Source of the DNA: a virus
Taxonomy: Duplodnaviria; Heunggongvirae; Uroviricota; Caudoviricetes
Virus record (IMG/VR): IMGVR_UViG_2585427763_000009
DNA length: 23,766 nucleotides
Strand: one strand, 5' to 3'
The stretch's first letter is position 1. Each line of letters begins with the position of its first letter. The notes under the pieces were generated by a model. It was not told where the DNA came from and made no database searches. It saw only the letters and a program-made list of their open reading frames with translations. The position numbers were made by a program, and so were the translations under genes. Below, piece after piece: positions 3,510 to 21,576 of this stretch.

Positions 3510-5778
3510 AGCCTCCGGGCGTTTTGTCCCTCCGTCAGCATTTGCCGCAGGCACCGGTAAGACGTTTACCGGTGCTTATGCATGGAACGCGCCACGCGAG
3601 GCCGTCGGGCGCGAAAGACCCCTTACACGTGACGAGATGCGTCAGGTGCAAGGTGTTTTATCCACGATTAACCGCCTGCCTTACTTTTTGCGTTCGCTGT
3701 TTACTTCACGCTATGACTACATCCGGCGCAATAAAAGCCCGGTGCACGGGTTTTATTTCCTCACATCCACTTTTCAGCGTCGTTTATGGCCGCGCATTGA
3801 GCGCGTGAATCAGCGCCATGAAATGAACACCGACGCGTCGTTACTGTTTCTGGCAGAGCGTGACCACTATGCGCGCCTGCCGGGAATGAATGACAAGGAG
3901 CTGAAAAAATTTGCCGCCCGTATCTCATCGCAGCTTTTCATGATGTATGAGGAACTCTGCGATGCCTGGGTGGATGCCCATGGCGAAAAAGAATCGCTGT
4001 TTACGGATGAGGCGCAGGCTCACCTGTATGGTCATGTTGCTGGCGCTGCACGTGCTTTCAATATTTCCCCGCTCTACTGGAAAAAATACCGTAAAGGACA
4101 GATGACCACGAGGCAGGCATATTCTGCCATTGCCCGCCTGTTTAACGATGAGTGGTGGACTCATCAGCTTAAAGGCCAGCGTATGCGCTGGCATGAGGCG
4201 TTACTGATTGCTGTCGGGGAGGTCAATAAAGACCGTTCTCCTTATGCCAGTAAACATGCCATTCGTGATGTGCGTGCACGCCGCCAGGCAAATCTGGAAT
4301 TTCTTAAATCGTGTGACCTTGAAAACAGGGAAACCGGCGAGCGCATCGACCTTATCAGTAAGGTGATGGGCAGTATTTCTAATCCTGAAATTCGCCGGAT
4401 GGAGCTGATGAACACCATTGCCGGTATTGAGCGTTACGCCGCAGCAGAGGGTGATGTGGGGATGTTTATCACGCTGACCGCGCCGTCAAAGTATCACCCG
4501 ACACGTCAGGTCGGAAAAGGCGAAAGTAAAACCGTCCAGCTAAATCACGGCTGGAACGATGAGGCATTTAATCCAAAGGATGCGCAGCGTTATCTCTGCC
4601 ATATCTGGAGCCTGATGCGCACGGCATTCAAGGATAATGATTTACAGGTCTACGGTTTGCGTGTCGTCGAGCCACACCACGACGGAACGCCGCACTGGCA
4701 TATGATGCTTTTTTGTAATCCACGCCAGCGTAACCAGATTATTGAAATCATGCGTCGCTATGCGCTCAAAGAGGATGGCGACGAAAGAGGAGCCGCGCGA
4801 AACCGTTTTCAGGCAAAACACCTTAACCGGGGCGGTGCTGCGGGATATATCGCGAAATACATCTCAAAAAACATCGACGGCTATGCACTGGATGGTCAGC
4901 TCGATAATGATACCGGTAGGCCGCTGAAAGACACAGCTGCGGCTGTTACCGCATGGGCGTCAACGTGGCGCATTCCGCAATTTAAAACGGTTGGTCTGCC
5001 GACAATGGGGGCTTACCGTGAACTACGCAAATTGCCTCGCGGCGTCAGCATTGCTGATGAGTTTGACGAGCGCGTCGAGGCTGCACGCGCCGCTGCAGAC
5101 AGTGGTGATTTTGCGTTGTATATCAGCGCGCAGGGCGGGGCAAATGTCCCGCGCGATTGTCAGACTGTCAGGGTCGCCCGTAGCCCGTCGGATGACGTTA
5201 ACGAGTACGAGGAAGAAGTCGAGAGAGTGGTCGGCATTTACGCGCCGCATCTCGGCGCGCGTCATATTCATATCACCAGAACGACGGACTGGCGCATTGT
5301 TCCGAAAGTGCCGGTCGTTGAGCCTTTGACTTTAAAAAGCGGCATCGCCGCGCCTCGGAGTCCTGTCAATAACTGTGGAAAGCTCACCGGTGGTGATACT
5401 TCGTTACCGGCTCCCACACCTTCTGAGCACGCCGCAGCAGTGCTTAATCTGGTTGATGACGGTGTTATTGAATGGAATGACCAGGAGGTCGTGAGGGCGC
5501 TCAGGGGCGCATTAAAACGAGGTCTGAGAAGACCAAACCGTCAGCAAAGAAACGGAAGCCCGTTAAAACAGCATGAAATGGCACCATCGGCCAGACTGAC
5601 CCGGTCAGAACGAATGCAAATTACCCGTATCCGCGTTGACCTTGCTCAGAACGGTATCAGGCCGCAGCGATGGGAGCTTGAGGCGCTGGCGCGTGGAGCA
5701 ATTGTAAATTACGACGGGAAAAAATTCACGTATCCAGTCGCTGATGAGTGGCGGGGATTCTCAGCAGTAATGGAGTGA
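3499..5778 (+). CDS. A: Rolling-circle replication initiator endonuclease gpA (759 aa from ATG 3499)
   Basis: Long ORF; from the internal ATG at 3499 (MAVKASGRF...) it matches the remembered P2 gpA N-terminus and length (~761 aa); contains HUH-type motif (PHWHMMLF) and the AGYIAKYISK tyrosine motif. Confidence 0.88.
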   Translation: MAVKASGRFVPPSAFAAGTGKTFTGAYAWNAPREAVGRERPLTRDEMRQVQGVLSTINRLPYFLRSLFTSRYDYIRRNKSPVHGFYFLTSTFQRRLWPRIERVNQRHEMNTDASLLFLAERDHYARLPGMNDKELKKFAARISSQLFMMYEELCDAWVDAHGEKESLFTDEAQAHLYGHVAGAARAFNISPLYWKKYRKGQMTTRQAYSAIARLFNDEWWTHQLKGQRMRWHEALLIAVGEVNKDRSPYASKHAIRDVRARRQANLEFLKSCDLENRETGERIDLISKVMGSISNPEIRRMELMNTIAGIERYAAAEGDVGMFITLTAPSKYHPTRQVGKGESKTVQLNHGWNDEAFNPKDAQRYLCHIWSLMRTAFKDNDLQVYGLRVVEPHHDGTPHWHMMLFCNPRQRNQIIEIMRRYALKEDGDERGAARNRFQAKHLNRGGAAGYIAKYISKNIDGYALDGQLDNDTGRPLKDTAAAVTAWASTWRIPQFKTVGLPTMGAYRELRKLPRGVSIADEFDERVEAARAAADSGDFALYISAQGGANVPRDCQTVRVARSPSDDVNEYEEEVERVVGIYAPHLGARHIHITRTTDWRIVPKVPVVEPLTLKSGIAAPRSPVNNCGKLTGGDTSLPAPTPSEHAAAVLNLVDDGVIEWNDQEVVRALRGALKRGLRRPNRQQRNGSPLKQHEMAPSARLTRSERMQITRIRVDLAQNGIRPQRWELEALARGAIVNYDGKKFTYPVADEWRGFSAVME

Positions 5779-6107
5779 ACGTCGCCAGTTGCGAAAATTA
5801 TTTACAGGGGGCAGCGTTAAGCATCTAAAGATCTTGTTCTATGATTAGAATGTTTCCTCGTTGCACTCTCGTATAGTTATTTAATGGGAAGATGTACTCT
5901 ATATGTTGTGTTTTGGTGATAAATGAAGCCAAAGGAAGGAGATTTTGCTTGATTGATGGGCGCTCTTTGCTATACACCTTGTATTGAGAAGGAGAAGTAA
6001 TCAAGGATTAAGCTGGCTTTTGTCAAAAATCTGAAAAGCTTTTTTGACTGAATACGATAGCGAGTTGTACTATTTGCGCCCTCAAAAGTAACCGGCGGCT
6101 GGGTAAA

Positions 6108-6482
6108 ATGGGGAAGCAAGGCAAAGGCAAAGGCAACAAAAATCAGGTTAAGGTTACGTGGGCTCAGGCGTGGCGGGATGTAATGATAAGAGCCATGTCT
6201 AATGGTCAGTTGATACCTATTACCATCAGTATTATTTTAATGATTGCTGCATGGAGGTTACCAAAAACAGACTTGTCCAATTTAGCCTTCTCTATTGTTG
6301 ATGGCTTTAAGGAGCATTCCTTGGTTGGTTGGGCTATCTCGGTAATAGTGGGTTTGGCTTGGTCTGCACATGCGCGAATCATGAGGCGCTGTTTTAGTTC
6401 CGAGGCACAGAGAATCGGTAACGAGAAAACAAAGTATCAACAAAGACAGACCACTCAAGCCTTGGGTACAAGTGATAAATAG
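6108..6482 (+). CDS. Small membrane protein, two predicted transmembrane helices (124 aa; true start may be the ATG at 6183)
   Basis: AT-rich ORF; hydrophobic segments LIPITISIILMIAAWRL and LVGWAISVIVGLAWSAHA; first gene after A in the cargo slot; a GGCGGGA Shine-Dalgarno-like run precedes the 6183 ATG. Confidence 0.5.
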   Translation: MGKQGKGKGNKNQVKVTWAQAWRDVMIRAMSNGQLIPITISIILMIAAWRLPKTDLSNLAFSIVDGFKEHSLVGWAISVIVGLAWSAHARIMRRCFSSEAQRIGNEKTKYQQRQTTQALGTSDK

Positions 6483-6502
6483 TTGTTTATTTAGGAGTTA
6501 TT

Positions 6503-7060
6503 ATGCTGACAGTGCTGTTTTATGTGCTGTTGGGTTTAGGCGCAGCACACTTCATTTACGAGCGAATCATTTTGCCGTCCATCCGACTTCATTATAGAAA
6601 CCAATTGTTTGCGCTTCGTGATGTCGCTAGGAGGAAAATCATTGATGGAGGTTCCGATACTTCCATGCAAGCGGCAACACTTGTGCATGACTCATTGAAT
6701 AACGCTATCAATAGATTGCATTTACTCACGTTGCCAAACAAATTTCGTGCTCAAAAGCGTATGGCAGAAAACCATGCAATAAGGCAGAAAATTCGGCGTG
6801 AGATAGATGTTTTCAAACGCTGTGATGATAGAGAAGTTGTTGATGTACTGTTTAAATCCGGTCGGATACTTGAAAATGTACTGTTATTCAATAGCTTAAT
6901 GTTATTGCTTTACATGTTTCCATTTGTCCTTGCTGTATGGTTCTGTGTTAGGGTCATAAAGACAGCAAGTAGTTTAGTACAGTGGGTCAAAGGAAGAGAT
7001 TTAGAGGAAGCTATAATGCTGCTTCCTGATACTCAGGTTGAAAAGGTTGTATACGCATAA
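6503..7060 (+). CDS. Membrane protein with N-terminal and C-terminal hydrophobic helices (185 aa)
   Basis: Starts 20 bp after the previous ORF behind an AGGAG Shine-Dalgarno; hydrophobic N-terminus (LTVLFYVLLGLGAAHFIY) and a C-proximal hydrophobic stretch (LLFNSLMLLLYMFPFVLAVWFCV); followed by a strong terminator. Confidence 0.55.
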   Translation: MLTVLFYVLLGLGAAHFIYERIILPSIRLHYRNQLFALRDVARRKIIDGGSDTSMQAATLVHDSLNNAINRLHLLTLPNKFRAQKRMAENHAIRQKIRREIDVFKRCDDREVVDVLFKSGRILENVLLFNSLMLLLYMFPFVLAVWFCVRVIKTASSLVQWVKGRDLEEAIMLLPDTQVEKVVYA

Positions 7061-7062
7061 AA

Positions 7063-7088
7063 ATCACCCCTTAGGGGGTGATTTTTTT
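7063..7088 (+). terminator. Rho-independent terminator after the two-membrane-protein operon
   Basis: Perfect hairpin ATCACCCC-TTAG-GGGGTGAT followed by TTTTTTT, immediately after the stop at 7060. Confidence 0.65.
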
Positions 7089-7299
7089 ACATGACTTTTG
7101 ATTAGCTGACATTGTAAATCCGCATGTATCAGATGCATTGTTTTGCATGTGGAAATGGGTGTTTTCACTGCCAGCTATCGCTACATGTAGCAAAAACACG
7201 GGCTTAATAAGAAATCATTCTGCCATAAGGCATAACTTCCCCGCGTGCTCAGGTATTGACGTCATAGATATGGATCTTTTTTAATCAAGGTATGGTATT

Positions 7300-8247
7300 A
7301 TGAAGATATTTATTAGTTGGTCAGGTCAGGACAGCCTGGAGATAGCAAAAGTATTACGGGATTGGATACCGAATGTTATTCAAGTAGCTGAGCCGTACGT
7401 ATCAGCGGAAGATATTGATAAAGGCACTCGCTGGGCGACTGATATATCAAAGGAACTTGATGACTCTTCTTATGGGATTATTTGCCTTACAAAAAATAAT
7501 ATTAATGCACCGTGGATAAATTTTGAGGCGGGTGCTTTAGGTAAAAAGGTTGATAAGAGCCGGGTTAGTCCTTTCTTGTTTAAAATTAAACCATCTGAGA
7601 TAACAGGCCCAATATTACAATTCCAGTATACTCGTTCGGATGATAAGAACGATATTTTGAAGTTGATGTTGTCAATAAATAATCAAGCAGGATTTTTGAC
7701 TGAAGAACGCTTAACTAAAGCTTTCGAGCAATGGTGGCCAAGTTTAGAGCGTGAGTTAGATAACATTCAAGATATTAACCCTGTAGATAAAGATTCCACT
7801 AAAAAAACAAAAGGTGATTCGACTTCTGAGATACAAAATCTTTCCAAAATTGTTGAAAGTTTGCTGGATATTAGCCGAACAAATCACCAATTATTGCGTG
7901 ATCCAGCATCATTATTGCCAGAAGAATATGTTAGCAAAATAATAAACAGGGAAGGGCGTAAAGAAACTGTTTTAAAAATTGTAGCTTCTGATTTATTATC
8001 CATGCATCATTCACTAATTCGTGTAAAAAGAAGATTTATTCGTCGTGGTATTGATGAAACATCTAGGAGCGAGTTAATTGAATCATTAAATAAAATGATA
8101 ATGGATTGTTCTAGAGTAATCGCTCACTTAGATAATTATTGTGGGGCTTCATCAAACAATATGTTCAATAGTGCGCTTAGATTGCGGACCAGAAATTTAA
8201 TTGACATGATGGATGAGGAGGATGCAGAACGGGATGAAATGGAATAA
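7300..8247 (+). CDS. TIR-domain protein (N-terminal TIR-like fold ~aa 1-150, C-terminal helical domain of unknown function; 315 aa)
   Basis: N-terminus KIFISWSGQDS (bacterial TIR beta-A strand pattern) and SYGIICLTKNNINAPWINFEAGAL (TIR S-x-W-x-x-x-E pattern, candidate catalytic Glu76 at nt 7525-7527); AT-rich; motif-level recognition only, no search. Confidence 0.6.
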   Translation: MKIFISWSGQDSLEIAKVLRDWIPNVIQVAEPYVSAEDIDKGTRWATDISKELDDSSYGIICLTKNNINAPWINFEAGALGKKVDKSRVSPFLFKIKPSEITGPILQFQYTRSDDKNDILKLMLSINNQAGFLTEERLTKAFEQWWPSLERELDNIQDINPVDKDSTKKTKGDSTSEIQNLSKIVESLLDISRTNHQLLRDPASLLPEEYVSKIINREGRKETVLKIVASDLLSMHHSLIRVKRRFIRRGIDETSRSELIESLNKMIMDCSRVIAHLDNYCGASSNNMFNSALRLRTRNLIDMMDEEDAERDEME

Positions 8248-8791
8248 TCAATTTTGACTAATCATAAATAATTTTGCATATATAAACTTATAATGCCGCA
8301 GCCGCTATTTTTCAGCGGCTGTATATCGCTTATAATGGGTATGTTATTTTTATTTTGATAAAATCATTAAAATTGTCGATGTTATATGAATGCACATGTA
8401 TTATTAATGTTAGAAGATTATGCCTGCTTACGGCTATTGTGCTGAATTCAACTATGAACGCATCAGTATTAAAATCGTTCCATGAAATGTTCTTCGTCTA
8501 CAGCAGATGATGGGCAACGAAAAAATGACGCTGAGTGAGTTGGTCGGGGAGAATTGTTAGAGGTATTTATGGAGTGGTTTAATAATATCGGTCAATCCTG
8601 AGTTGCAGCATCACATAGACGATAGGGAATCTCTCCAGTCGTTCTGGAATGGCAGCGTTGAACAACAAGCACAGCGAGGCGTTAGATGCCCATCAGATTG
8701 ACACAGAGGGTTTATGAATCGCTGGGATTTACTTAGTTTGAAAAATAATATATTTATATGTTTTTGTATTGTGTTTGTTAAGGAGTTTGGA

Positions 8792-8998
8792 TTGAAAAGA
8801 AAACTGATTTGTGTTATGGCTTTTTGGGGGGCGTTGCTGGCTGGTTGTAATGAGAGTAATAAAAAAGAAGTTGAGGGTTGTATTGAAAGAGGTGTCCAAT
8901 ATTTTATAGAGATTGGTTCTTACCCTAAATTAAGTGATGGGCGTGATGCTGTAAAAGTTGCTACTGAACGTTGTAATAGAACAATAACGGCTTTCTGA
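8792..8998 (+). CDS. Small predicted lipoprotein (69 aa from TTG 8792; longer frame opens at ATG 8714)
   Basis: AAGGAG Shine-Dalgarno 6 nt upstream of TTG 8792; N-terminus KRKLICVMAFWGALLAGC is a classic lipoprotein signal with lipobox LAGC; mature part has 3 Cys. The 8714 start would give an atypically long leader. Confidence 0.5.
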   Translation: MKRKLICVMAFWGALLAGCNESNKKEVEGCIERGVQYFIEIGSYPKLSDGRDAVKVATERCNRTITAF

Positions 8999-9000
8999 TA

Positions 9001-9918
9001 ATGGATTATACGAGCTATATAATAGGACAGCTTCAGGTTGAGGATATTATTGATGCAATTAAAGGCGTTAATAATACTAATGTCATAAAAGATTATGTGC
9101 TGCCTGTAGTATTACCAATTATATCTTCTGTGCTGAGTTACTTTATTGCAACTAGGTTGTTTTATCGGCAGGAGGACCTTAAAGCACAAAGAAGAAAGGT
9201 AAGCGTTGTAAATAAATGTATTTATGACTACTTTTCTGCAATGACAACGTTGTTGCAAATTAAAGGGAATTATTATGGTGGGGTAAGTATAAGTGAAAAT
9301 CCTATCGAGAGGGCTTTAGCTTTTCCTGTTGTGGTTTTTTCTGGTGCTCCTCTATCATCAGATTTAAGTGAGTTGGCCTGTATATTGAGTCAAAAGGGAG
9401 TAGGGAATAATAGAGAGCCAGCAAAGACTACTAACTGGGGGGATGCTTTTGCTGTTAGTGATATAGCAAGAAGGTTTAACAGCCTATTGGCTGCATTAAA
9501 TGTTAGGAATGATTTTGATGACACCTATAGAGGAATGATTATTGAATCAACAGGTTCACCTTTGCCTACGATGCGTTTTAAAAATGATGATATTGTTAAT
9601 GCTATAGGTAGTAATAAGGCAGCTTATTACATTGATATTACTGAGCAAATAATGATTATGATAGATGTTTTGTTGCTTGATATTAATCTGTTGCTCAAAG
9701 AGTTGCCATTGTATGCTGAATCGCTGTTTGACAAAAGAGTAATGCAAGAAGATTCAGGGATTCTTAAATTCAATGATTTGCACGAACGTTTTCCTCTACT
9801 TATGAAACCTGTAACGCCACCTTCGATTAAACTCATGTCTGATTATTTGGGGTACAGTGAAGATGAGATCTTACGACGCTATCCATACCCGTTCTTTAAT
9901 ATGCATGATTGTGAATGA
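9001..9918 (+). CDS. Hypothetical membrane-anchored protein (305 aa), translationally coupled to the upstream lipoprotein gene
   Basis: ATG 2 nt after the lipoprotein stop (TGATAATG); one hydrophobic helix (~aa 32-54, VLPVVLPIISSVLSYFIATRLF); AT-rich; no motif I recognise. Confidence 0.55.
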   Translation: MDYTSYIIGQLQVEDIIDAIKGVNNTNVIKDYVLPVVLPIISSVLSYFIATRLFYRQEDLKAQRRKVSVVNKCIYDYFSAMTTLLQIKGNYYGGVSISENPIERALAFPVVVFSGAPLSSDLSELACILSQKGVGNNREPAKTTNWGDAFAVSDIARRFNSLLAALNVRNDFDDTYRGMIIESTGSPLPTMRFKNDDIVNAIGSNKAAYYIDITEQIMIMIDVLLLDINLLLKELPLYAESLFDKRVMQEDSGILKFNDLHERFPLLMKPVTPPSIKLMSDYLGYSEDEILRRYPYPFFNMHDCE

Positions 9919-10022
9919 ATGTGCATATGTCAGAAGCCGTTTTTATTGTCAGTTATCGTCAGTGCTGGCGCGCTCTTGGAGTGTTCATGCAACTGCATTA
10001 AAACCGCCCCACGAAGCGGGCG

Positions 10023-10198: not shown

Positions 10199-11233
10199 TC
10201 AGCCGTTGTCAGTGTCCAGTGAGTAGTTTTTAAAGCGGATGACCTCCTGACCGAGCCAGCCGTTTATTTCCCGAATCCTGTCCTGTAACGGGATAAGTTC
10301 ATTGCGGACAAAGACCTTTGCCACTTTCTCAATATCGCCCAGCGACCCGACGTTTTCCGGCTTGCCACCCATCAACTGAAAGGGGATGCGGTGCGCGTCC
10401 AGCAGGTCAGCGGCGCTGGCTTTTTTGATATTAAAAAAATCGTCCTTCGTGGCCACTTCACTGAGCGGGATAATTTTAATGCCGTCGGCTTTTCCCTGTG
10501 GGGCATAGAGAAACAGGTTTTTAAAGTTATTGCGGCCTTTCGACTTCACCATGTTTTCGCGGAGCATTTCGATATCGTTGCGATCCTGCACGGCATCAGT
10601 GACGTACATGATGTATCCGGCATGTGCGCCGTTTTCGTAATACTTGCGGCGGAACAGCGTGGCCGACTCATTCAGCCAGGCAGAGTTAAGGGCGCTGAGA
10701 TATTCCGGCAGACCGTACAGCTCCTGATTAATATCCGGCTCCAGCAGGTGAAACACGGAGCCGGGCGCGAAAGGTGTCGGCTCGTTGAAGGACGGCACCC
10801 ACCAGTAAACATCCTCCTCCACGCCACGGCGGGTATATTTTGCCGGTGAGGTTTCCAGTCTGATGACCTTACCGGTGGTGCTGTAACGCTTTTCCAGAAA
10901 CGCATTACCGAATACCAGAAAATCCAGCACAAAGCGGCTGAAATCCTGCTGAGAAAGCCACGGGTGTGGGATAAACGTTGAGGCCAGAATGTTACGTTTG
11001 ACGTAAATCGGTGAGCTGTGATGCACGGCAGCACGCAGGCTTTTTGCCAGACCGGTAAAGCTGACTGGTGGCTCATACCATCTGCCGTTACTGATGCACT
11101 CGACGTAATCCAGAATGTCACGGCGGTCGAGTACCGGCACCGGCTCACCAAAGGTGAATGCCTCCATTTTCGGGGCGCTGGCGGTCATTTTTTTTGCCGC
11201 AGGTTGCGGTGTTTTCCCTTTTTTCTTGCTCAT
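10199..11233 (-). CDS. Q: Capsid portal protein gpQ (344 aa)
   Basis: 344-aa reverse-strand ORF; N-terminus MSKKKGKTPQPAAKKMTASAPKMEAFTFGEP matches remembered P2 gpQ; correct size and position next to cos. Confidence 0.88.
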   Translation of the reverse strand: MSKKKGKTPQPAAKKMTASAPKMEAFTFGEPVPVLDRRDILDYVECISNGRWYEPPVSFTGLAKSLRAAVHHSSPIYVKRNILASTFIPHPWLSQQDFSRFVLDFLVFGNAFLEKRYSTTGKVIRLETSPAKYTRRGVEEDVYWWVPSFNEPTPFAPGSVFHLLEPDINQELYGLPEYLSALNSAWLNESATLFRRKYYENGAHAGYIMYVTDAVQDRNDIEMLRENMVKSKGRNNFKNLFLYAPQGKADGIKIIPLSEVATKDDFFNIKKASAADLLDAHRIPFQLMGGKPENVGSLGDIEKVAKVFVRNELIPLQDRIREINGWLGQEVIRFKNYSLDTDNG

Positions 11234-12042
11234 CAGTAAAACTCCAGAATGGTGGATGTCAGCGGGGTGCTGATACCGGCGGTGAGTGGCTCATTTAACA
11301 GGGCGTGCATGGTCGCCCAGGCGAGGTCGGCGTGGCTGGCTTCCTCGCTACGGCTGGCCTCATAGGTGGCGCTGCGTCCGCTGCTGGTCATGGTCTTGCG
11401 GATAGCCATGAACGAGCTGGTGATGTCGGTGGCGCTGCGTCCGCTGCTGGTCATGGTCTTGCGGATAGCCATGAACGAGCTGGTGATGTCGGTGGCGCTG
11501 CGTCCGCTGCTGGTCATGGTCTTGCGGATAGCCATGAACGAGCTGGTGATGTCGGTGGCGCTGCGTCCGCTGCTGGTCATGGTCTTGCGGATAGCCATGA
11601 ACGAGCTGGTGATGTCGGTGGCGCTGCGTCCGCTGCTGGTCATGGTCTTGCGGATAGCCATGAACGAGCTGGTGATGTCGGTGGCGCTGCGTCCGCTGCT
11701 GGTCATGGTCTTGCGGATAGCCATGAACGAGCTGGTGATGTCGGTGGCGCTGACGTCATATTCCAGACAGCCACGGCGGATGACGTCTTTTGCCTTGAGC
11801 ACCATTGCGGTTTTCATTTCCGGCGTGTAGCGGATATCGCGTGCGGCGGGATAGAACGAGCGCACGAGCTGGAACACGCCGACACCGAGGCCGGTGGCAT
11901 CAATTCCGATGTATTCGACGTTGTATTTTTCGGTGAGTTTGCGGATGGATTCCGCCTGAGTGGCAAAGTCCATGCCTTTCCACTGGTGACGCTCAAGTAT
12001 TCTGAATTTACCTCCGGCCACCACCGGCGGTGCCAGCACCAC
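11233..12042 (-). pseudogene. P: 3' remnant of terminase ATPase/nuclease subunit gene P: 5'-truncated, carrying an expanded in-frame tandem repeat
   Basis: Reverse-strand frame ends 1 nt into the Q start (P2 P-Q arrangement) and contains a terminase nuclease-like motif (YIGIDATGLGVGV), but only ~270 codons remain versus ~590 in P2 gpP; the upstream partner on the + strand is lysozyme K, not O/N/M. Confidence 0.7.
11371..11748. repeat. Perfect tandem repeat, 6 copies of a 63-bp unit (in frame; encodes SATDITSSFMAIRKTMTSSGR x6 on the reverse strand)
   Basis: Unit GCTGCGTCCGCTGCTGGTCATGGTCTTGCGGATAGCCATGAACGAGCTGGTGATGTCGGTGGC starts at 11371, 11434, 11497, 11560, 11623 and 11686 with no mismatches; phase is ambiguous by about 6 nt because the flanks share GGTGGC / GCTG. 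Confidence 0.9.
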
Positions 12043-12058
12043 GCATCCGGCGCTGGCC

Positions 12059-14446: not shown

Positions 14447-15232
14447 TTATGAGTGATTTTTATTTGATGCTTTGTATTCTAAAACCTTCTTATTGGCGTA
14501 AAAGAATTTTGTATATGACAGGAATATAACCAGACCTGAAGTGAAATAGACGAGGGATAGTATTAATAATGCTTTTTTGCGACTGTTATTATCTTTAATC
14601 TCCAGGCTTAACCATTCGGAGTCCTCCTCGTTTAGCTGTAAGAGCTTATTGCAGGCGATTTCAGGAAGTGTGTCTTTTATAAATACGTTTTGCAGTCTCT
14701 TGCAATCGGCAAGGCTATAAGTTTTATTAAATTCAACTGCTTTATTTTTGAAGGATAAAAGAACTTTGTCACTATAAACATAGTACATCATGTTTTTATA
14801 TGGTATGCCTATGGCATCCCTTACTATAACGGATTGTTCGTTGTGTATGTAACATGCGAGGAGAATGTAAAAAATACTGGCCAGAATTACAATTATTGTT
14901 TTAATTATGTGTGGTGGTTTTGTTATGTCACCCCAGATGCGAGTAAGGAAAAAATACGATGTTTTTAGTTTTCCATCAATCAGTCCCTGCTGTATCATTC
15001 TCACATTTTCAATGCCTGATACATTGATTCCGTTAATTATTTTAAATAGTTGAATGTCGCGCCACTCGCGGTCAAGTCTTTTTAATTTTTTGTCTGAATA
15101 TCCAAAATTGAAATAATGTGCAATAAGCCTCATAAGGTTACTTTTACCAAAGCTAAAAAATGCTAATACTGCAAAGCTACAAAGGAAAAAAACGATTAGC
15201 CCCCACACATTAGTCACATTATAGCTGACCAT
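14447..15232 (-). CDS. Hypothetical membrane protein (261 aa, about 3 transmembrane helices), moron in the S/V slot
   Basis: Strongly AT-rich reverse-strand ORF between S and V where P2 carries the non-essential orf30; hydrophobic helices at the N-terminus, middle (IIKTIIVILASIFYILLACYI) and C-terminus (ALLILSLVYFTSGLVIFL). Confidence 0.6.
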   Translation of the reverse strand: MVSYNVTNVWGLIVFFLCSFAVLAFFSFGKSNLMRLIAHYFNFGYSDKKLKRLDREWRDIQLFKIINGINVSGIENVRMIQQGLIDGKLKTSYFFLTRIWGDITKPPHIIKTIIVILASIFYILLACYIHNEQSVIVRDAIGIPYKNMMYYVYSDKVLLSFKNKAVEFNKTYSLADCKRLQNVFIKDTLPEIACNKLLQLNEEDSEWLSLEIKDNNSRKKALLILSLVYFTSGLVIFLSYTKFFYANKKVLEYKASNKNHS

Positions 15233-15315
15233 TACGCTCTCCTTGAATGTTGTCTGGTAGTTCTACAAATGAATCCAGATAGCATAACTTTTATATATTG
15301 TGCAATCTCACATGC

Positions 15316-15951
15316 ATGAACACTCTCGCAAATATTCAGGAACTCGCGCGCGCACTGCGCAACATGATTCGCACCGGCATTATCGTCGAAACCGACCTTA
15401 ACGCCGGTCGCTGCCGCGTGCAGACCGGCGGCATGTGCACCGACTGGCTTCAGTGGCTGACCCATCGCGCCGGTCGTTCGCGCACATGGTGGGCACCTTC
15501 CGTGGGGGAACAGGTGCTGATTCTGTCCGTGGGCGGTGAACTCGACACGGCGTTTGTTCTGCCGGGGATTTATTCCGGCGATAATCCCGCGCCGTCTGCG
15601 TCGGCGGATGCCCTGCATATCCGTTTCCCTGACGGGGCGGTGATTGAGTATGAACCCGAAACCAGTGCGCTCACGGTAAGCGGAATTAAAACGGCCAGCG
15701 TGACGGCTTCCGGTTCTGTTACTGCCACTGTGCCGGTGGTCATGGTGAAAGCGTCAACCCGCATCACCCTGGACACACCGGAGGTGGTCTGCACCAACAG
15801 GCTGATTACCGGCACGCTGGAAGTGCAGAAGGGCGGGACGATGCGCGGCAACATTGAACACACCGGCGGTGAACTCTCATCAAACGGTAAGGTACTGCAT
15901 ACCCATAAACACCCCGGCGACAGCGGCGGCACAACCGGGAGTCCTCTATGA
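15316..15951 (+). CDS. V: Baseplate spike/assembly protein gpV (211 aa from ATG 15316)
   Basis: Matches P2 gpV size and order; start set at MNTLANIQ; stop overlaps the W start. Confidence 0.85.
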   Translation: MNTLANIQELARALRNMIRTGIIVETDLNAGRCRVQTGGMCTDWLQWLTHRAGRSRTWWAPSVGEQVLILSVGGELDTAFVLPGIYSGDNPAPSASADALHIRFPDGAVIEYEPETSALTVSGIKTASVTASGSVTATVPVVMVKASTRITLDTPEVVCTNRLITGTLEVQKGGTMRGNIEHTGGELSSNGKVLHTHKHPGDSGGTTGSPL

Positions 15952-20539: not shown

Positions 20540-21133
20540 ATGTTTACTAAGCGACGATTAAAAAATATTAACTGGGAGGCAAGTTCAGTGATTCTTGCTA
20601 TGGTTCTCTTTGTTGGAAATATATTTTATACAAATCATCGTGATGATATAAGCATGGAGGCTGAGAGGGACAGTATCAGAACAATGTTTGCATATGAAAT
20701 CGCTAATAACCATCGCGCTCTCACTTTTCTTGATAAAACGAGACATATTGGCTTTGACGAAAATTCGGAGCATTTTGTTGGCGAGCCTTTTGCCATTAAT
20801 GTCAAATCATTAGGGGGACCTCGCTTACAGATTGCATTAAACCAGACTGATAAAGTGTTTAAATCCTACTTCGGCGAATTAAGTAAGCTTGATAAAGAGG
20901 ATGTTACTCTTCTTATGGACTATTACCATGAGCAAAGCATCCTGCTGGAGCGTGTAAAATCTACGTTACAGAAGATGAAAAGTGGTAATGATATTAAAGT
21001 TGATATTGATGGTTGCTTATTAGAAGAACACTTCATGAATGAGCTTAATCTTTCTAATATTTTGCTTAAACGCTATAGCTATTTATTATCACAACACGCT
21101 AAGGAACATAAAACAAAAGATTTACATAATTGA
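20540..21133 (+). CDS. Hypothetical membrane-anchored protein (197 aa) in the Z/fun slot between G and FI
   Basis: AT-rich ORF after a 220-bp AT-rich spacer; single N-terminal hydrophobic helix (SSVILAMVLFVGNIFY) then a soluble domain; no motif I recognise. Confidence 0.55.
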   Translation: MFTKRRLKNINWEASSVILAMVLFVGNIFYTNHRDDISMEAERDSIRTMFAYEIANNHRALTFLDKTRHIGFDENSEHFVGEPFAINVKSLGGPRLQIALNQTDKVFKSYFGELSKLDKEDVTLLMDYYHEQSILLERVKSTLQKMKSGNDIKVDIDGCLLEEHFMNELNLSNILLKRYSYLLSQHAKEHKTKDLHN

Positions 21134-21462: not shown

Positions 21463-21576
21463 ATGAGTGACTATCATCACGGCGTGCAGGTGCTGGAGAT
21501 TAACGACGGCACCCGCGTCATTTCCACCGTATCCACAGCCATTGTCGGCATGGTCTGCACGGCTAGCCTCCCGTAA
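21463..21576 (+). pseudogene. FI: Tail sheath gene FI remnant: first ~35 codons only, then a premature stop at the deletion junction
   Basis: Translation [35 protein letters not shown] matches the remembered P2 gpFI N-terminus, then LP-stop. Confidence 0.7.

What the first reader, a model, noticed from the sequence alone, without database searches (positions are those of the whole stretch)
6108..8247. Membrane-membrane-TIR three-gene module directly after replication gene A
Seen: two small membrane proteins (124 and 185 aa) in one operon closed by a strong terminator (7063-7088), then after 211 bp a TIR-domain protein (315 aa). Established: from memory this architecture matches a three-gene anti-phage system reported from P2/P4 hotspots and catalogued as a 2TM-1TM-TIR type; I cannot verify sequence-level identity. 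Inference: if it is that system, the interest is in the mechanism (TIR signalling to membrane effectors) and in it being two separate transcripts here.
Basis: partly seen in the sequence, partly recalled or inferred. Interest (0 to 1): 0.7.

Follow-up and report, generated by a model that had tools for sequence, protein, structure and literature searches.

The report
Known AC1 TIR locus, probably two modules
These three genes are almost letter-for-letter the anti-phage "2TM + 1TM + TIR" locus already tested in phage P2_AC1, but everywhere else the membrane-protein pair and the TIR gene occur without each other, so the catalogued three-gene system is probably two independent cassettes that happen to sit side by side.

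Summary

The identity is also confirmed. All three proteins match the PADLOC 2TM-TIR, 1TM-TIR and TIR-TM models over their full length. The hotspot DNA is 99.6% identical to phage P2_AC1. That is the phage in which Rousset et al. 2022 cloned these three genes together and showed defence against lambda, LF82_P8 and P2. The locus is therefore already known.

The part that is not in the literature I could search concerns linkage.
- The trio exists only as one allele, at least 99% identical: 14 of 5,426 complete E. coli genomes, AC1 and 2 IMG/VR contigs.
- 140 other TIR-homologue loci lack the membrane pair. They include 74-78% identical copies in the same P2 hotspot, small Klebsiella plasmids, and many phyla plus an archaeon.
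- 25 other loci carry the 2TM-1TM pair without a TIR gene.
- The pair brings its own conserved promoter-like site and a terminator.
- The TIR gene brings about 115 bp of conserved upstream sequence and about 235 bp of conserved downstream sequence.

My best reading is two autonomous cassettes stacked in the hotspot, not a TIR-to-membrane signalling pathway (confidence about 0.6). No single-gene deletions have been reported. Interest is low to moderate.

The parts
5779..6107 (+). Intergenic region after replication gene A. It holds a promoter-like site, TTGACT-18 nt-TACTAT, at 6044-6073 upstream of the 2TM gene.
   Evidence: The site was found by the consensus scan. Both hexamers and the spacing are conserved in the P2-like copies that have only the membrane pair, L092 and L093, and the last ~90 bp before the ATG are conserved (alignment A4). 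Function as a promoter is inferred.
6108..6482 (+). '2TM' gene: a 124-aa inner-membrane protein with a Gly/Lys-rich basic N-terminal tail, two hydrophobic helices and a basic C-terminal tail.
   Evidence: PADLOC 2TM-TIR 2.2e-58 over 1-124 of 124; phrog_33772; hydropathy and charge. A homologue lies directly upstream of every 1TM homologue examined.
6503..7060 (+). '1TM' gene: a 185-aa all-helical membrane protein. It has an N-terminal transmembrane helix, a conserved polar helical region (H16, Y19, E20, R28, R32, D40, R43, N66, N67, N70) and a long hydrophobic segment around the invariant Y137/P140.
   Evidence: PADLOC 1TM-TIR 2.7e-75; identical to the AC1 protein; family alignment A5; AlphaFold2 mean pLDDT 86; no significant fold match in PDB or BFVD.
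7063..7088 (+). Intrinsic terminator that closes the 2TM-1TM operon.
   Evidence: Sequence read directly. Folds at -17.8 kcal/mol, z = -5.6. The same hairpin is present in L092, L105 and L106. Unrelated GC hairpins with a T-run sit at the same position in 22 of 25 pair-only loci.
7089..7184 (.). Junction between the two cassettes. Homology to pair-only loci fades at about 7155. Homology to TIR-alone loci starts at about 7185.
   Evidence: Alignments A3 and A2. The boundaries are approximate.
7185..7299 (+). Conserved 5' region that travels with the TIR gene. It contains TTGACG at about 7255-7260 and a Shine-Dalgarno AAGG at 7287-7290. No convincing sigma-70 promoter could be assigned.
   Evidence: It aligns with the region upstream of the TIR-alone genes in the E. 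coli (L096) and Klebsiella (L086) P2-like prophages. The scan found no + strand promoter here.
7300..8247 (+). TIR gene (315 aa). It has an N-terminal TIR domain (about 1-150) with the W72-x3-E76 motif, a linker, and a C-terminal helical region with a second conserved motif (E186...R193, N195...R200, P202...P207, Y210).
   Evidence: Pfam TIR_2 4.7e-10; PADLOC TIR-TM 2.3e-118; alignment A1 with E76 invariant in 25 homologues; AlphaFold2 with block-mean pLDDT mostly 70-90 in the TIR domain, lower around residues 71-80 and 101-110; Foldseek hits to PdTIR, BtTir, AbTir and SPARTA TIR; W/E aligned to AbTIR 'WTNYE'.
8248..8484 (+). Conserved 3' region of the TIR cassette. It includes a 9-bp hairpin at about 8298-8322 that has no T-run.
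   Evidence: It aligns with the TIR-alone loci L096 and L086 up to about 8484. The hairpin folds at -15.9 kcal/mol, z = -3.1. Its function is unknown.
8485..9985 (+). Third, separate hotspot cassette that is not part of the tested system: a 68-aa lipoprotein gene (8792-8998, TTG start) and a 305-aa membrane protein gene (9001-9918).
   Evidence: It lies outside the pFD240 clone. It occurs without the TIR and TM genes in NZ_CP146667. It has no PADLOC, Pfam or NCBIfam hit.

Best explanation
**What it is.** This is the AC1-type '2TM + 1TM + TIR' anti-phage locus (DefenseFinder Rst_2TM_1TM_TIR, with matching PADLOC models). It lies in the gpA-gpQ hotspot of a P2-like prophage.

**How it is most likely built.** It is probably not one signalling pathway. 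It looks like two self-contained cassettes stacked next to each other, with a third unrelated cassette downstream.

- **Cassette 1** (about 5779-7155) is a promoter, the 2TM-1TM operon and a terminator. The two small inner-membrane proteins always occur as a pair, and all 25 pair-only copies examined are in prophage or viral contigs of Enterobacterales-type bacteria. Inferred function: a membrane-level exclusion or abortive-infection module.
- **Cassette 2** (about 7185-8484) is a stand-alone TIR gene with its own conserved flanks. Inferred function: a single-protein defence. The variable C-terminal helical region would sense infection or control oligomerisation. The highly conserved TIR domain, with catalytic E76, would then consume NAD+ or make an NAD-derived product, stopping phage growth.

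**Shown versus inferred.** Shown: the sequence identity to the tested locus, the independent distribution of the two parts, and the cassette boundaries. Inferred: the functional independence and both molecular mechanisms.
For: **Identity to the tested locus.**. The same protein accessions appear in Rousset's Table S5A.

**Independence of the TIR gene.**
- The closest TIR homologues that are not of the AC1 type are the sole hotspot cargo of P2-like prophages: 78% identity in E. coli L096 and 74% in Klebsiella L085/L086.
- Other homologues sit alone on ~4.7-kb Rep/Mob plasmids, in the Serratia chromosome, in a Providencia island, and in an Enterobacter chromosome beside a cluster of phage-like genes (AlpA, capsid, Nu1).
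- 80 genomes from many phyla and Methanosarcina carry homologues with ~42-57% identity over residues 1-~210.
- Profile searches found no 2TM or 1TM homologue in 91 genomic TIR loci or in 49 of 51 IMG/VR TIR loci. No neighbour recurs in more than 5 of the 91 genomic loci.

**Independence of the membrane pair.**
- All 25 2TM-1TM loci that are not of the AC1 type lack a TIR gene in the DNA held (up to 5 kb each side). Ten are in P2-like hotspots and 15 in other prophages.

**Rarity of the trio.**
- The trio is found only at >=99% identity: 14 of 5,426 complete E. coli genomes, AC1 alone among 50,697 phage records, and 2 IMG/VR contigs.

**Cassette anatomy.**
- The promoter-like site is conserved.
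- The terminator is maintained, with at least six unrelated hairpin sequences at the same position.
- The TIR flanks are conserved with TIR-alone loci.
- GC3 differs: 0.46 and 0.39 for the membrane genes, 0.29 for the TIR gene.

**Precedent.** Single-protein TIR systems protect E. coli on their own and need the TIR active site (PMC11350192).

**No receptor domain found.** Neither membrane protein has a recognisable nucleotide-binding domain.
Against: - The only experiment, pFD240, tested the three genes together. So the published data fit an integrated system equally well.
- The TIR C-terminal region is the most divergent part and could have adapted to the membrane pair in the AC1 lineage.
- Defence systems often swap sensors and effectors, so independent occurrence does not prove independent action in this allele.
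- The conserved polar helical region of the 1TM protein could be an unrecognised ligand-binding site.
- I could not identify a convincing promoter for the TIR gene.
- A partner encoded elsewhere in the genome cannot be excluded for the loci examined. Some of those loci also have short flanks; 80 of the 91 have at least 1.5 kb upstream.
Confidence: 0.6

Rival explanations
1. One integrated three-component system, as proposed by Rousset et al. and the first reader. On infection the TIR protein makes an NAD-derived signal that opens or activates the 2TM/1TM membrane effectors, and the cell dies before phage are released. This is the logic of Thoeris systems with a TM-macro effector.
For: The three genes cloned together reproduce the lysogen's defence (PMC9122126). 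TM effectors driven by TIR signals exist in TM-macro Thoeris (PMC11204291). The catalytic-type Glu E76 is invariant. The 14 genomes and AC1 keep the three genes together.
Against: Linkage is confined to one allele at least 99% identical. 140 TIR loci lack the pair and 25 pair loci lack TIR, including copies in the same hotspot of sister phages. A strong terminator and separate conserved flanks divide the genes. The membrane proteins show no macro, SLOG, SAVED or other ligand-binding domain. There is no ThsA or ThsB hit in PADLOC.
Confidence: 0.22
2. An integrated system with the roles reversed. The membrane pair senses an envelope event such as DNA injection or membrane perturbation and releases or activates the TIR protein, which is the NAD+-depleting effector.
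For: The TIR domain is the most conserved part, as expected of an effector. The system acts against P2 itself, which is unusual for this hotspot and would fit sensing at entry.
Against: The distribution argument is the same as above. TIR homologues work somewhere without this pair in more than 100 loci. The pair persists without TIR as the sole cargo of P2-like hotspots.
Confidence: 0.08
3. The cassettes are independent, but only one of them is an anti-phage system. The other, most likely the 2TM-1TM pair, serves the prophage or host in another way, for example lysis timing, lysogenic conversion or membrane homeostasis.
For: The pair sits at classic moron sites of lambdoid prophages next to lysis genes: between Q and the holin, or between the lysis genes and HNH/terminase. 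No test of it in isolation exists.
Against: The pair is the only cargo of a hotspot known to be rich in defence genes in the Serratia prophage L093, and cargo together with a DinI-like gene in E. coli L092. Its PADLOC and DefenseFinder status rests only on the joint clone, so this rival is not excluded.
Confidence: 0.1

Closest known systems
AC1 '2TM + 1TM + TIR' system (Rousset et al. 2022, Cell Host Microbe, PMC9122126; DefenseFinder Rst_2TM_1TM_TIR; PADLOC models 2TM-TIR, 1TM-TIR and TIR-TM)
   Same: Same genes, order, strand, hotspot and flanks. The DNA is 99.6% identical. The 1TM protein is identical and the TIR protein is 314/315 identical. The published clone maps to window 5843-8629.
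   Different: There is a two-residue (GK) indel in the N-terminal tail of 2TM and an A283V change in TIR. Here the host prophage is a deletion derivative. My analysis questions whether the three genes are one system.
Thoeris with a TM-macro ThsA effector (type II Thoeris)
   Same: A TIR protein next to a small membrane protein, which is the model invoked for AC1.
   Different: There is no macro or SLOG domain and no ThsA or ThsB model hit. The membrane genes are a separate operon with their own terminator, and linkage is not conserved.
Single-protein TIR defence systems of E. coli (TIR-V, TIR-VI, TIR-IX; Wang et al. 2024, PMC11350192) and bacterial TIR NADases such as AbTir, BtTir and PdTIR
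   Same: A stand-alone TIR protein with a helical extension. The TIR fold and the W-x3-E catalytic-type motif are present. Single TIR proteins suffice for defence in those systems.
   Different: I could not show homology of the non-TIR region to any of them. In TIR-V and TIR-IX the C-termini superimpose closely and the N-termini differ, which may mean the shared domain is C-terminal there; here the TIR domain is N-terminal. No enzymatic data exist for this family.
Prophage morons and membrane-acting exclusion genes (lambda RexAB, P22 SieA/SieB, T4 Imm/Sp; P2 old and tin in the same hotspot). These are recalled from general knowledge.
   Same: A promoter, gene(s) and terminator cassette of lower GC, inserted at variable prophage sites. 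It encodes small inner-membrane proteins and protects a lysogen against other phages, including relatives.
   Different: I found no sequence or fold similarity to any of these. The exclusion function of the 2TM-1TM pair on its own is untested.

Membership tests
Rst_2TM_1TM_TIR / PADLOC 2TM-1TM-TIR (AC1 system) | Protein 1 matches the 2TM model | tested here: met
   PDLC02978, E = 2.2e-58, residues 1-124 on profile 1-124 of 124.
Rst_2TM_1TM_TIR / PADLOC 2TM-1TM-TIR (AC1 system) | Protein 2 matches the 1TM model | tested here: met
   PDLC02977, E = 2.7e-75, residues 1-184 on profile 1-183 of 186. 185/185 identical to AC1.
Rst_2TM_1TM_TIR / PADLOC 2TM-1TM-TIR (AC1 system) | Protein 3 matches the TIR model | tested here: met
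   PDLC03016, E = 2.3e-118. 314/315 identical to AC1.
Rst_2TM_1TM_TIR / PADLOC 2TM-1TM-TIR (AC1 system) | Three genes adjacent on the same strand, in the order 2TM-1TM-TIR, in the gpA-gpQ hotspot of a P2-like phage | tested here: met
   gpA ends at 5778 and the portal gene is at 10199-11233 on the - strand.
Rst_2TM_1TM_TIR / PADLOC 2TM-1TM-TIR (AC1 system) | Anti-phage activity of the locus | not testable with these tools
   Shown for the 99.6%-identical AC1 fragment against lambda, LF82_P8 and P2 (PMC9122126). Not measured for this allele.
Rst_2TM_1TM_TIR / PADLOC 2TM-1TM-TIR (AC1 system) | All three genes required (one functional unit) | not testable with these tools
   No single-gene deletions are reported. 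The comparative data argue against it.
Thoeris-like TIR signalling system | Effector with a signal-binding domain (SLOG or macro) and matches to ThsA/ThsB models | tested here: not met
   No such hit in PADLOC or Pfam for any of the three proteins. The 1TM fold has no significant match.
Thoeris-like TIR signalling system | Conserved genomic linkage of the TIR gene with its effector across diverged homologues | tested here: not met
   No diverged trio was found. 140 TIR loci lack the pair and 25 pair loci lack TIR.
Catalytic TIR (NAD+-cleaving) domain | TIR fold and family match | tested here: met
   TIR_2 at 40.5 bits against a cut-off of 28. Foldseek top hits are TIR domains.
Catalytic TIR (NAD+-cleaving) domain | Conserved catalytic glutamate in the W-x-x-x-E motif | tested here: met
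   W72 and E76 are invariant in 25 homologues. They align with 'WTNYE' of AbTIR, although that pairwise E-value is not significant. That this Glu is the catalytic one is from general knowledge of TIR NADases.
Catalytic TIR (NAD+-cleaving) domain | NADase or cyclase activity | not testable with these tools
   Needs biochemistry.
Autonomous prophage moron cassette (applied to the 2TM-1TM operon) | Own terminator | tested here: met
   22 of 25 pair-only loci have one.
Autonomous prophage moron cassette (applied to the 2TM-1TM operon) | Own promoter | tested here: inconclusive
   TTGACT-18-TACTAT is conserved in the P2-like copies. There is no transcript data.
Autonomous prophage moron cassette (applied to the 2TM-1TM operon) | Occurs at different sites in different phages, independent of its neighbours, with deviating base composition | tested here: met
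   P2-like hotspots and two different lambdoid sites. GC is 0.40-0.44 against 0.53 in the flanking phage genes.

The most novel reading that the evidence does not exclude
The catalogued three-gene '2TM-1TM-TIR' system is an annotation artefact of one chance juxtaposition. On this reading it hides two uncharacterised systems.
- One is a very widespread, highly conserved single-gene TIR defence protein. There are at least 1,500 relatives across bacterial phyla and in Methanosarcina, on phages and on small plasmids. Its N-terminal TIR domain is followed by a conserved 'LLDxSRxNHxLLRxPxxLLPxxY' helix.
- The other is a two-gene inner-membrane module carried by enterobacterial prophages, with its own promoter and terminator.
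Each would protect against a different subset of the phages blocked by AC1.
Probability: 0.5. Interest if true: 0.5.

Novelty: already known. Interest (0 to 1): 0.3.

Why it matters
As a finding, the locus is already catalogued and was tested in a near-identical allele.

The useful outcome is a correction. DefenseFinder requires all three genes, so it detects this 'system' almost nowhere; a 2024 survey found none in its genome set. It would therefore miss the far more common TIR-alone and pair-alone cassettes.

If the two parts act independently, three things follow. The published mechanistic hypothesis of a TIR signal acting on membrane effectors is wrong. The detection models should be split. 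And a large, cross-phylum family of solo TIR proteins becomes a candidate single-gene immune system that is easy to test.

Tried and rejected
- **Direct search for the membrane proteins near distant TIR loci.** phmmer of the 2TM and 1TM proteins against ORFs of the 80 distant TIR loci found nothing. I repeated the search with family profiles on stop-to-stop ORFs so that start-codon choice and gene calling could not cause misses, and it again found nothing.
- **Search for any other recurrent partner of the TIR gene.** My first clustering was dominated by shadow ORFs overlapping the conserved TIR gene itself. After removing them, no family recurs in more than 5 of 91 loci.
- **Fold of the 1TM protein.** The model is confident (pLDDT 86), but it has no significant match in PDB or BFVD. 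The afdb50 library was unavailable.
- **Sequence search of the TIR profile against PDB.** It gave only insignificant hits. TIR assignment therefore rests on Pfam and Foldseek.
- **Promoter for the TIR gene.** The consensus scan gave nothing on the + strand in 7089-7299. By eye, TTGACG-18-TTTAAT would put the transcription start inside the Shine-Dalgarno sequence and is not conserved at the -10 position in L096 or L086. This is left unresolved.
- **Literature.** I found no mechanistic paper on this system after 2022 in the searchable library. Wang et al. 2024 could not be matched to this protein because its supplements are not held.
- **Thoeris membership.** Considered and rejected; see the membership table.
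Full report
**1. The observation**

They lie directly after the P2-type replication gene A, which ends at 5778.

Protein 1 has two hydrophobic helices (35-51, 71-87) between a Gly/Lys-rich N-terminal tail (net +6) and a basic C-terminal tail (+5). Protein 2 has an N-terminal hydrophobic helix (2-18) and a long hydrophobic stretch around 125-155. The TIR protein has no membrane segment.

Three bases after the 1TM stop codon lies ATCACCCC-TTAG-GGGGTGAT followed by a T-run (7063-7088). As RNA it folds at -17.8 kcal/mol with z = -5.6. The consensus scanner did not list it, probably because the stem can extend into the flanking A and T runs. The TIR start codon is 211 bp further on. The cargo region has 32-43% G+C, against 52-57% in the flanking phage genes.

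**2. What it is**

All three proteins match, end to end, the three PADLOC models built for the '2TM-1TM-TIR' system: 2.2e-58, 2.7e-75 and 2.3e-118. Pfam sees only TIR_2 in the third protein. PHROGs places all three in families of unknown function, and NCBIfam has nothing.

The whole hotspot cargo is 99.6% identical to Escherichia phage P2_AC1, OV192280. The 1TM proteins are identical. The TIR proteins differ at one residue (A283V). The 2TM proteins differ by a GK indel in the N-terminal tail.

AC1 is the phage in which Rousset et al. (PMC9122126) found that a lysogen resists lambda and LF82_P8. [quoted passage not shown] Their plasmid pFD240 is listed as '2TM + 1TM + TIR'. Its forward and reverse primers map to window 5843 and 8629. 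The same protein accessions appear in their hotspot table. The finding is therefore a known, experimentally supported locus.

**3. The three genes do not behave as one unit in other genomes**

*The trio is a single allele.*
- In 5,426 complete E. coli genomes the TIR gene is found 14 times, always at least 99.7% identical and always with the pair.
- Among 50,697 phage records only AC1 has either gene family at full length.
- In IMG/VR two contigs carry the trio, with 100% identical proteins.

*The TIR gene is usually alone.*
- Its family is large: 1,511 clusters at E <= 0.001 in a word-limited search.
- The closest relatives outside the AC1 allele sit alone in the same gpA-gpQ hotspot of other P2-like prophages. 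One is 78% identical in E. coli (L096) and one is 74% identical in Klebsiella (L085/L086). In both, the TIR gene is the only cargo.
- A 61% relative sits on small Rep/Mob plasmids of Klebsiella, overlapping the rep gene. A 4.7-kb Serratia plasmid carries another.
- Others are single genes in the Serratia chromosome, in a Providencia island, and in an Enterobacter chromosome beside a cluster of phage-like genes (AlpA, capsid, Nu1).
- A scan of one genome per species returned 80 loci from Anaerolineales, Bacteroidota, Clostridia, Planctomycetota, Cyanobacteria, Actinomycetota and the archaeon Methanosarcina. Identity over residues 1 to about 210 is 42-57%.
- Profiles of the 2TM and 1TM families hit none of 91 such genomic loci. 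Of these, 80 have at least 1.5 kb upstream. The profiles also hit none of 49 of the 51 viral TIR loci.
- No other neighbour family recurs in more than 5 of the 91 genomic loci.

*The 2TM-1TM pair is a tight pair that usually lacks TIR.*
- The 1TM family is small, with 49 clusters mostly named from Enterobacterales.
- In every one of 25 loci not of the AC1 type, a 2TM homologue lies immediately upstream. No TIR homologue lies in the DNA held, up to 5 kb on either side.
- Ten of these loci are P2-like hotspots. They include E. coli L092 (81% identical 1TM) and Serratia L093 (72%), where the pair is the only cargo.
- Fifteen are other prophage or viral loci. In those inspected, the pair sits between the Q antiterminator and the holin, or between the lysis genes and HNH/terminase.
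- No plasmid carries the pair.

**4. Cassette anatomy**

Upstream of the 2TM gene, TTGACT-18 nt-TACTAT (6044-6073) and the following ~90 bp are conserved in the pair-only P2-like copies.

The terminator after the 1TM gene is the same hairpin in L092, L105 and L106. At least six unrelated GC hairpins with a T-run replace it at the same position in other copies. In all, 22 of 25 pair-only loci have one. The terminator therefore belongs to the pair and predates its meeting with the TIR gene. Homology to pair-only loci fades at about 7155.

From about 7185 to the ATG, the sequence aligns with the region upstream of the TIR-alone genes in L096 and L086. After the TIR stop, about 235 bp are likewise shared with those loci, up to about 8484. 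This stretch includes a hairpin at 8298-8322 that folds at -15.9 kcal/mol and has no T-run.

Third-codon-position G+C is 0.46 and 0.39 for the membrane genes and 0.29 for the TIR gene.

The layout is therefore:
- gpA
- pair cassette
- TIR cassette
- a third cassette (8485-9985)
- the conserved cos-proximal sequence
- gpQ

Rousset et al. themselves note that many P2 hotspots hold more than one system.

**5. The proteins**

*TIR protein.* Residues 1-150 are very conserved. There are 75 invariant columns among 25 homologues that are 42-78% identical overall. They include W72 and E76 in 'APWINFEAG'. This is the W-x3-E arrangement that holds the catalytic glutamate of NAD+-cleaving TIR domains; that point is general knowledge of SARM1, plant TIRs and AbTir. 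In a weak pairwise alignment the motif lines up with 'WTNYE' of AbTIR.

The AlphaFold2 model has mean pLDDT 71. Block means in the TIR domain are mostly 70-90, lower around residues 71-80 and 101-110. Its best PDB matches are TIR domains: TLR1, RPS4, PdTIR, BtTir, SPARTA TIR-APAZ and AbTir.

After a disordered linker comes a helical region. It contains a second conserved motif (E186, L189, R193, N195, L199, R200, P202, P207, Y210) and ends in a variable tail.

*1TM protein.* The model is confident and all-helical (pLDDT 86). It has a conserved polar face (H16, Y19, E20, R28, R32, D40, R43, N66, N67, N70). It has no significant fold match.

**6. Mechanism**

Shown here:
- the identity to a tested defence locus;
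- the independent distribution of the two parts;
- the separate flanks;
- a catalytic-type TIR motif.

Inferred:
- The TIR protein works alone, as single-protein TIR systems of E. coli do (PMC11350192). Its variable C-terminal helices would sense infection or gate oligomerisation, and its TIR domain would consume NAD+ or make a product from it.
- The 2TM-1TM pair is a separate membrane-level exclusion or abortive-infection module carried by prophages.

Which cassette accounts for which of the three phages blocked by AC1 is unknown. I put about 0.6 on independence and about 0.3 on some integrated model: signal to membrane effectors, or membrane sensor to TIR effector. About 0.1 goes to the pair not being a defence module at all. 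The published data cannot distinguish these because no single-gene deletions were reported.

**7. Comparison and novelty**

Membership of the AC1 / Rst_2TM_1TM_TIR entry is met on every sequence criterion. Membership of Thoeris is not met: there are no ThsA or ThsB matches, no macro or SLOG domain, and no conserved linkage.

The locus is already known. The new element is the comparative evidence that the catalogued trio is probably two cassettes. I found no discussion of this in the searchable literature. One survey reported that Rst_2TM_1TM_TIR was undetectable in its genome set, which fits a one-allele trio.

**8. Verdict**

- Novelty: already known.
- Interest: 0.3.

Noticed in passing
window 8485-9985 (genes 8792-8998 and 9001-9918, + strand): A third, separate hotspot cassette. 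It holds a 68-aa lipoprotein (TTG start 6 nt after AAGGAG; signal peptide MKRKLICVMAFWGALLAG|C) and a 305-aa protein with hydrophobic segments. The 94-aa ATG ORF at 8714 is probably an over-extension. There is no Pfam, PADLOC or NCBIfam hit, and the PHROGs matches are of unknown function. Only 2 clusters appear in the 5.8-billion-protein search. The cassette occurs without the TIR and TM genes in E. coli MS 16-3 (NZ_CP146667). The lipoprotein gene carries a 1-bp deletion in AC1, and the cassette was not in the tested clone. It is an untested candidate exclusion or defence pair.
   Followed up: partly
window 8455-8484 and 9983-10014: Imperfect direct repeat (…GCAnCnGTATTAAAAyCGnnCCAyGAA…) flanking the third cassette. 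In the TIR-alone P2-like loci this sequence occurs once, next to the cos-proximal region. It looks like the recombination site at which cassettes are stacked.
   Followed up: partly
window 11365-11757: A 63-bp unit repeated 6.2 times in tandem (99% matches), in frame inside the remnant of the terminase gene P (ORF 11233-12042, - strand). AC1 has one copy, and so do the complete E. coli genomes whose matches I inspected. The origin is unexplained: a natural amplification, an assembly artefact, or something else.
   Followed up: partly
window ~12052-12055 and ~21564-21567: Two deletions of about 5.3-5.4 kb relative to phage AC1. The first removes the N-terminal two-thirds of terminase P, the head genes (scaffold, capsid and small terminase subunit, by P2 gene order), the holin and part of the endolysin. 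The second removes the tail sheath, tube, tape-measure and part of gpD. Each junction shows a 4-bp overlap between the flanking alignments. The prophage in this window is therefore defective but keeps all of its hotspot cargo. No complete E. coli genome spans the first junction.
   Followed up: partly
window 14447-15232 (-), 15232-15618 (-) and 20540-21133 (+): Further low-GC accessory ORFs (261, 128 and 197 aa). The first two lie between tail genes S and V; the third lies after the ORF I take to be tail-fibre assembly gene G (P2 gene order). These are the other variable loci of P2-like phages. They have no Pfam or PADLOC hits. The DNA aligns with AC1, where the 261-aa gene is annotated.
   Followed up: partly
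window 6108-6160 (N-terminus of the 2TM protein): The Gly/Lys-rich tail (MGKQGKGKGNK…) varies in length by GK units between this window and AC1, and is Lys/Gly/Ser-rich in all homologues. This points to repeat slippage in a flexible, basic, presumably cytoplasmic tail.
   Followed up: no
loci L005-L084, e.g. L010 (Methanosarcina hadiensis), L011 (Bacteroides ovatus), L014 (Sporosarcina): The TIR domain plus the following conserved helix (residues 1 to about 210) keeps 42-57% identity across distant bacterial phyla and an archaeon, while the C-terminal tail is free to vary. That is unusually strong conservation for a defence protein and suggests frequent horizontal transfer of a solo gene.
   Followed up: partly
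loci L097-L099 (Klebsiella contigs of 6.7-9.4 kb) and plasmid NZ_CP091124 (Serratia, 4.7 kb): A 55-61% identical TIR homologue is carried on small Rep/Mob (RelE-antitoxin) plasmids. In the Klebsiella contigs its start overlaps the end of the replicase gene by 4 bp. The protein is reported on hundreds of contigs.
   Followed up: no
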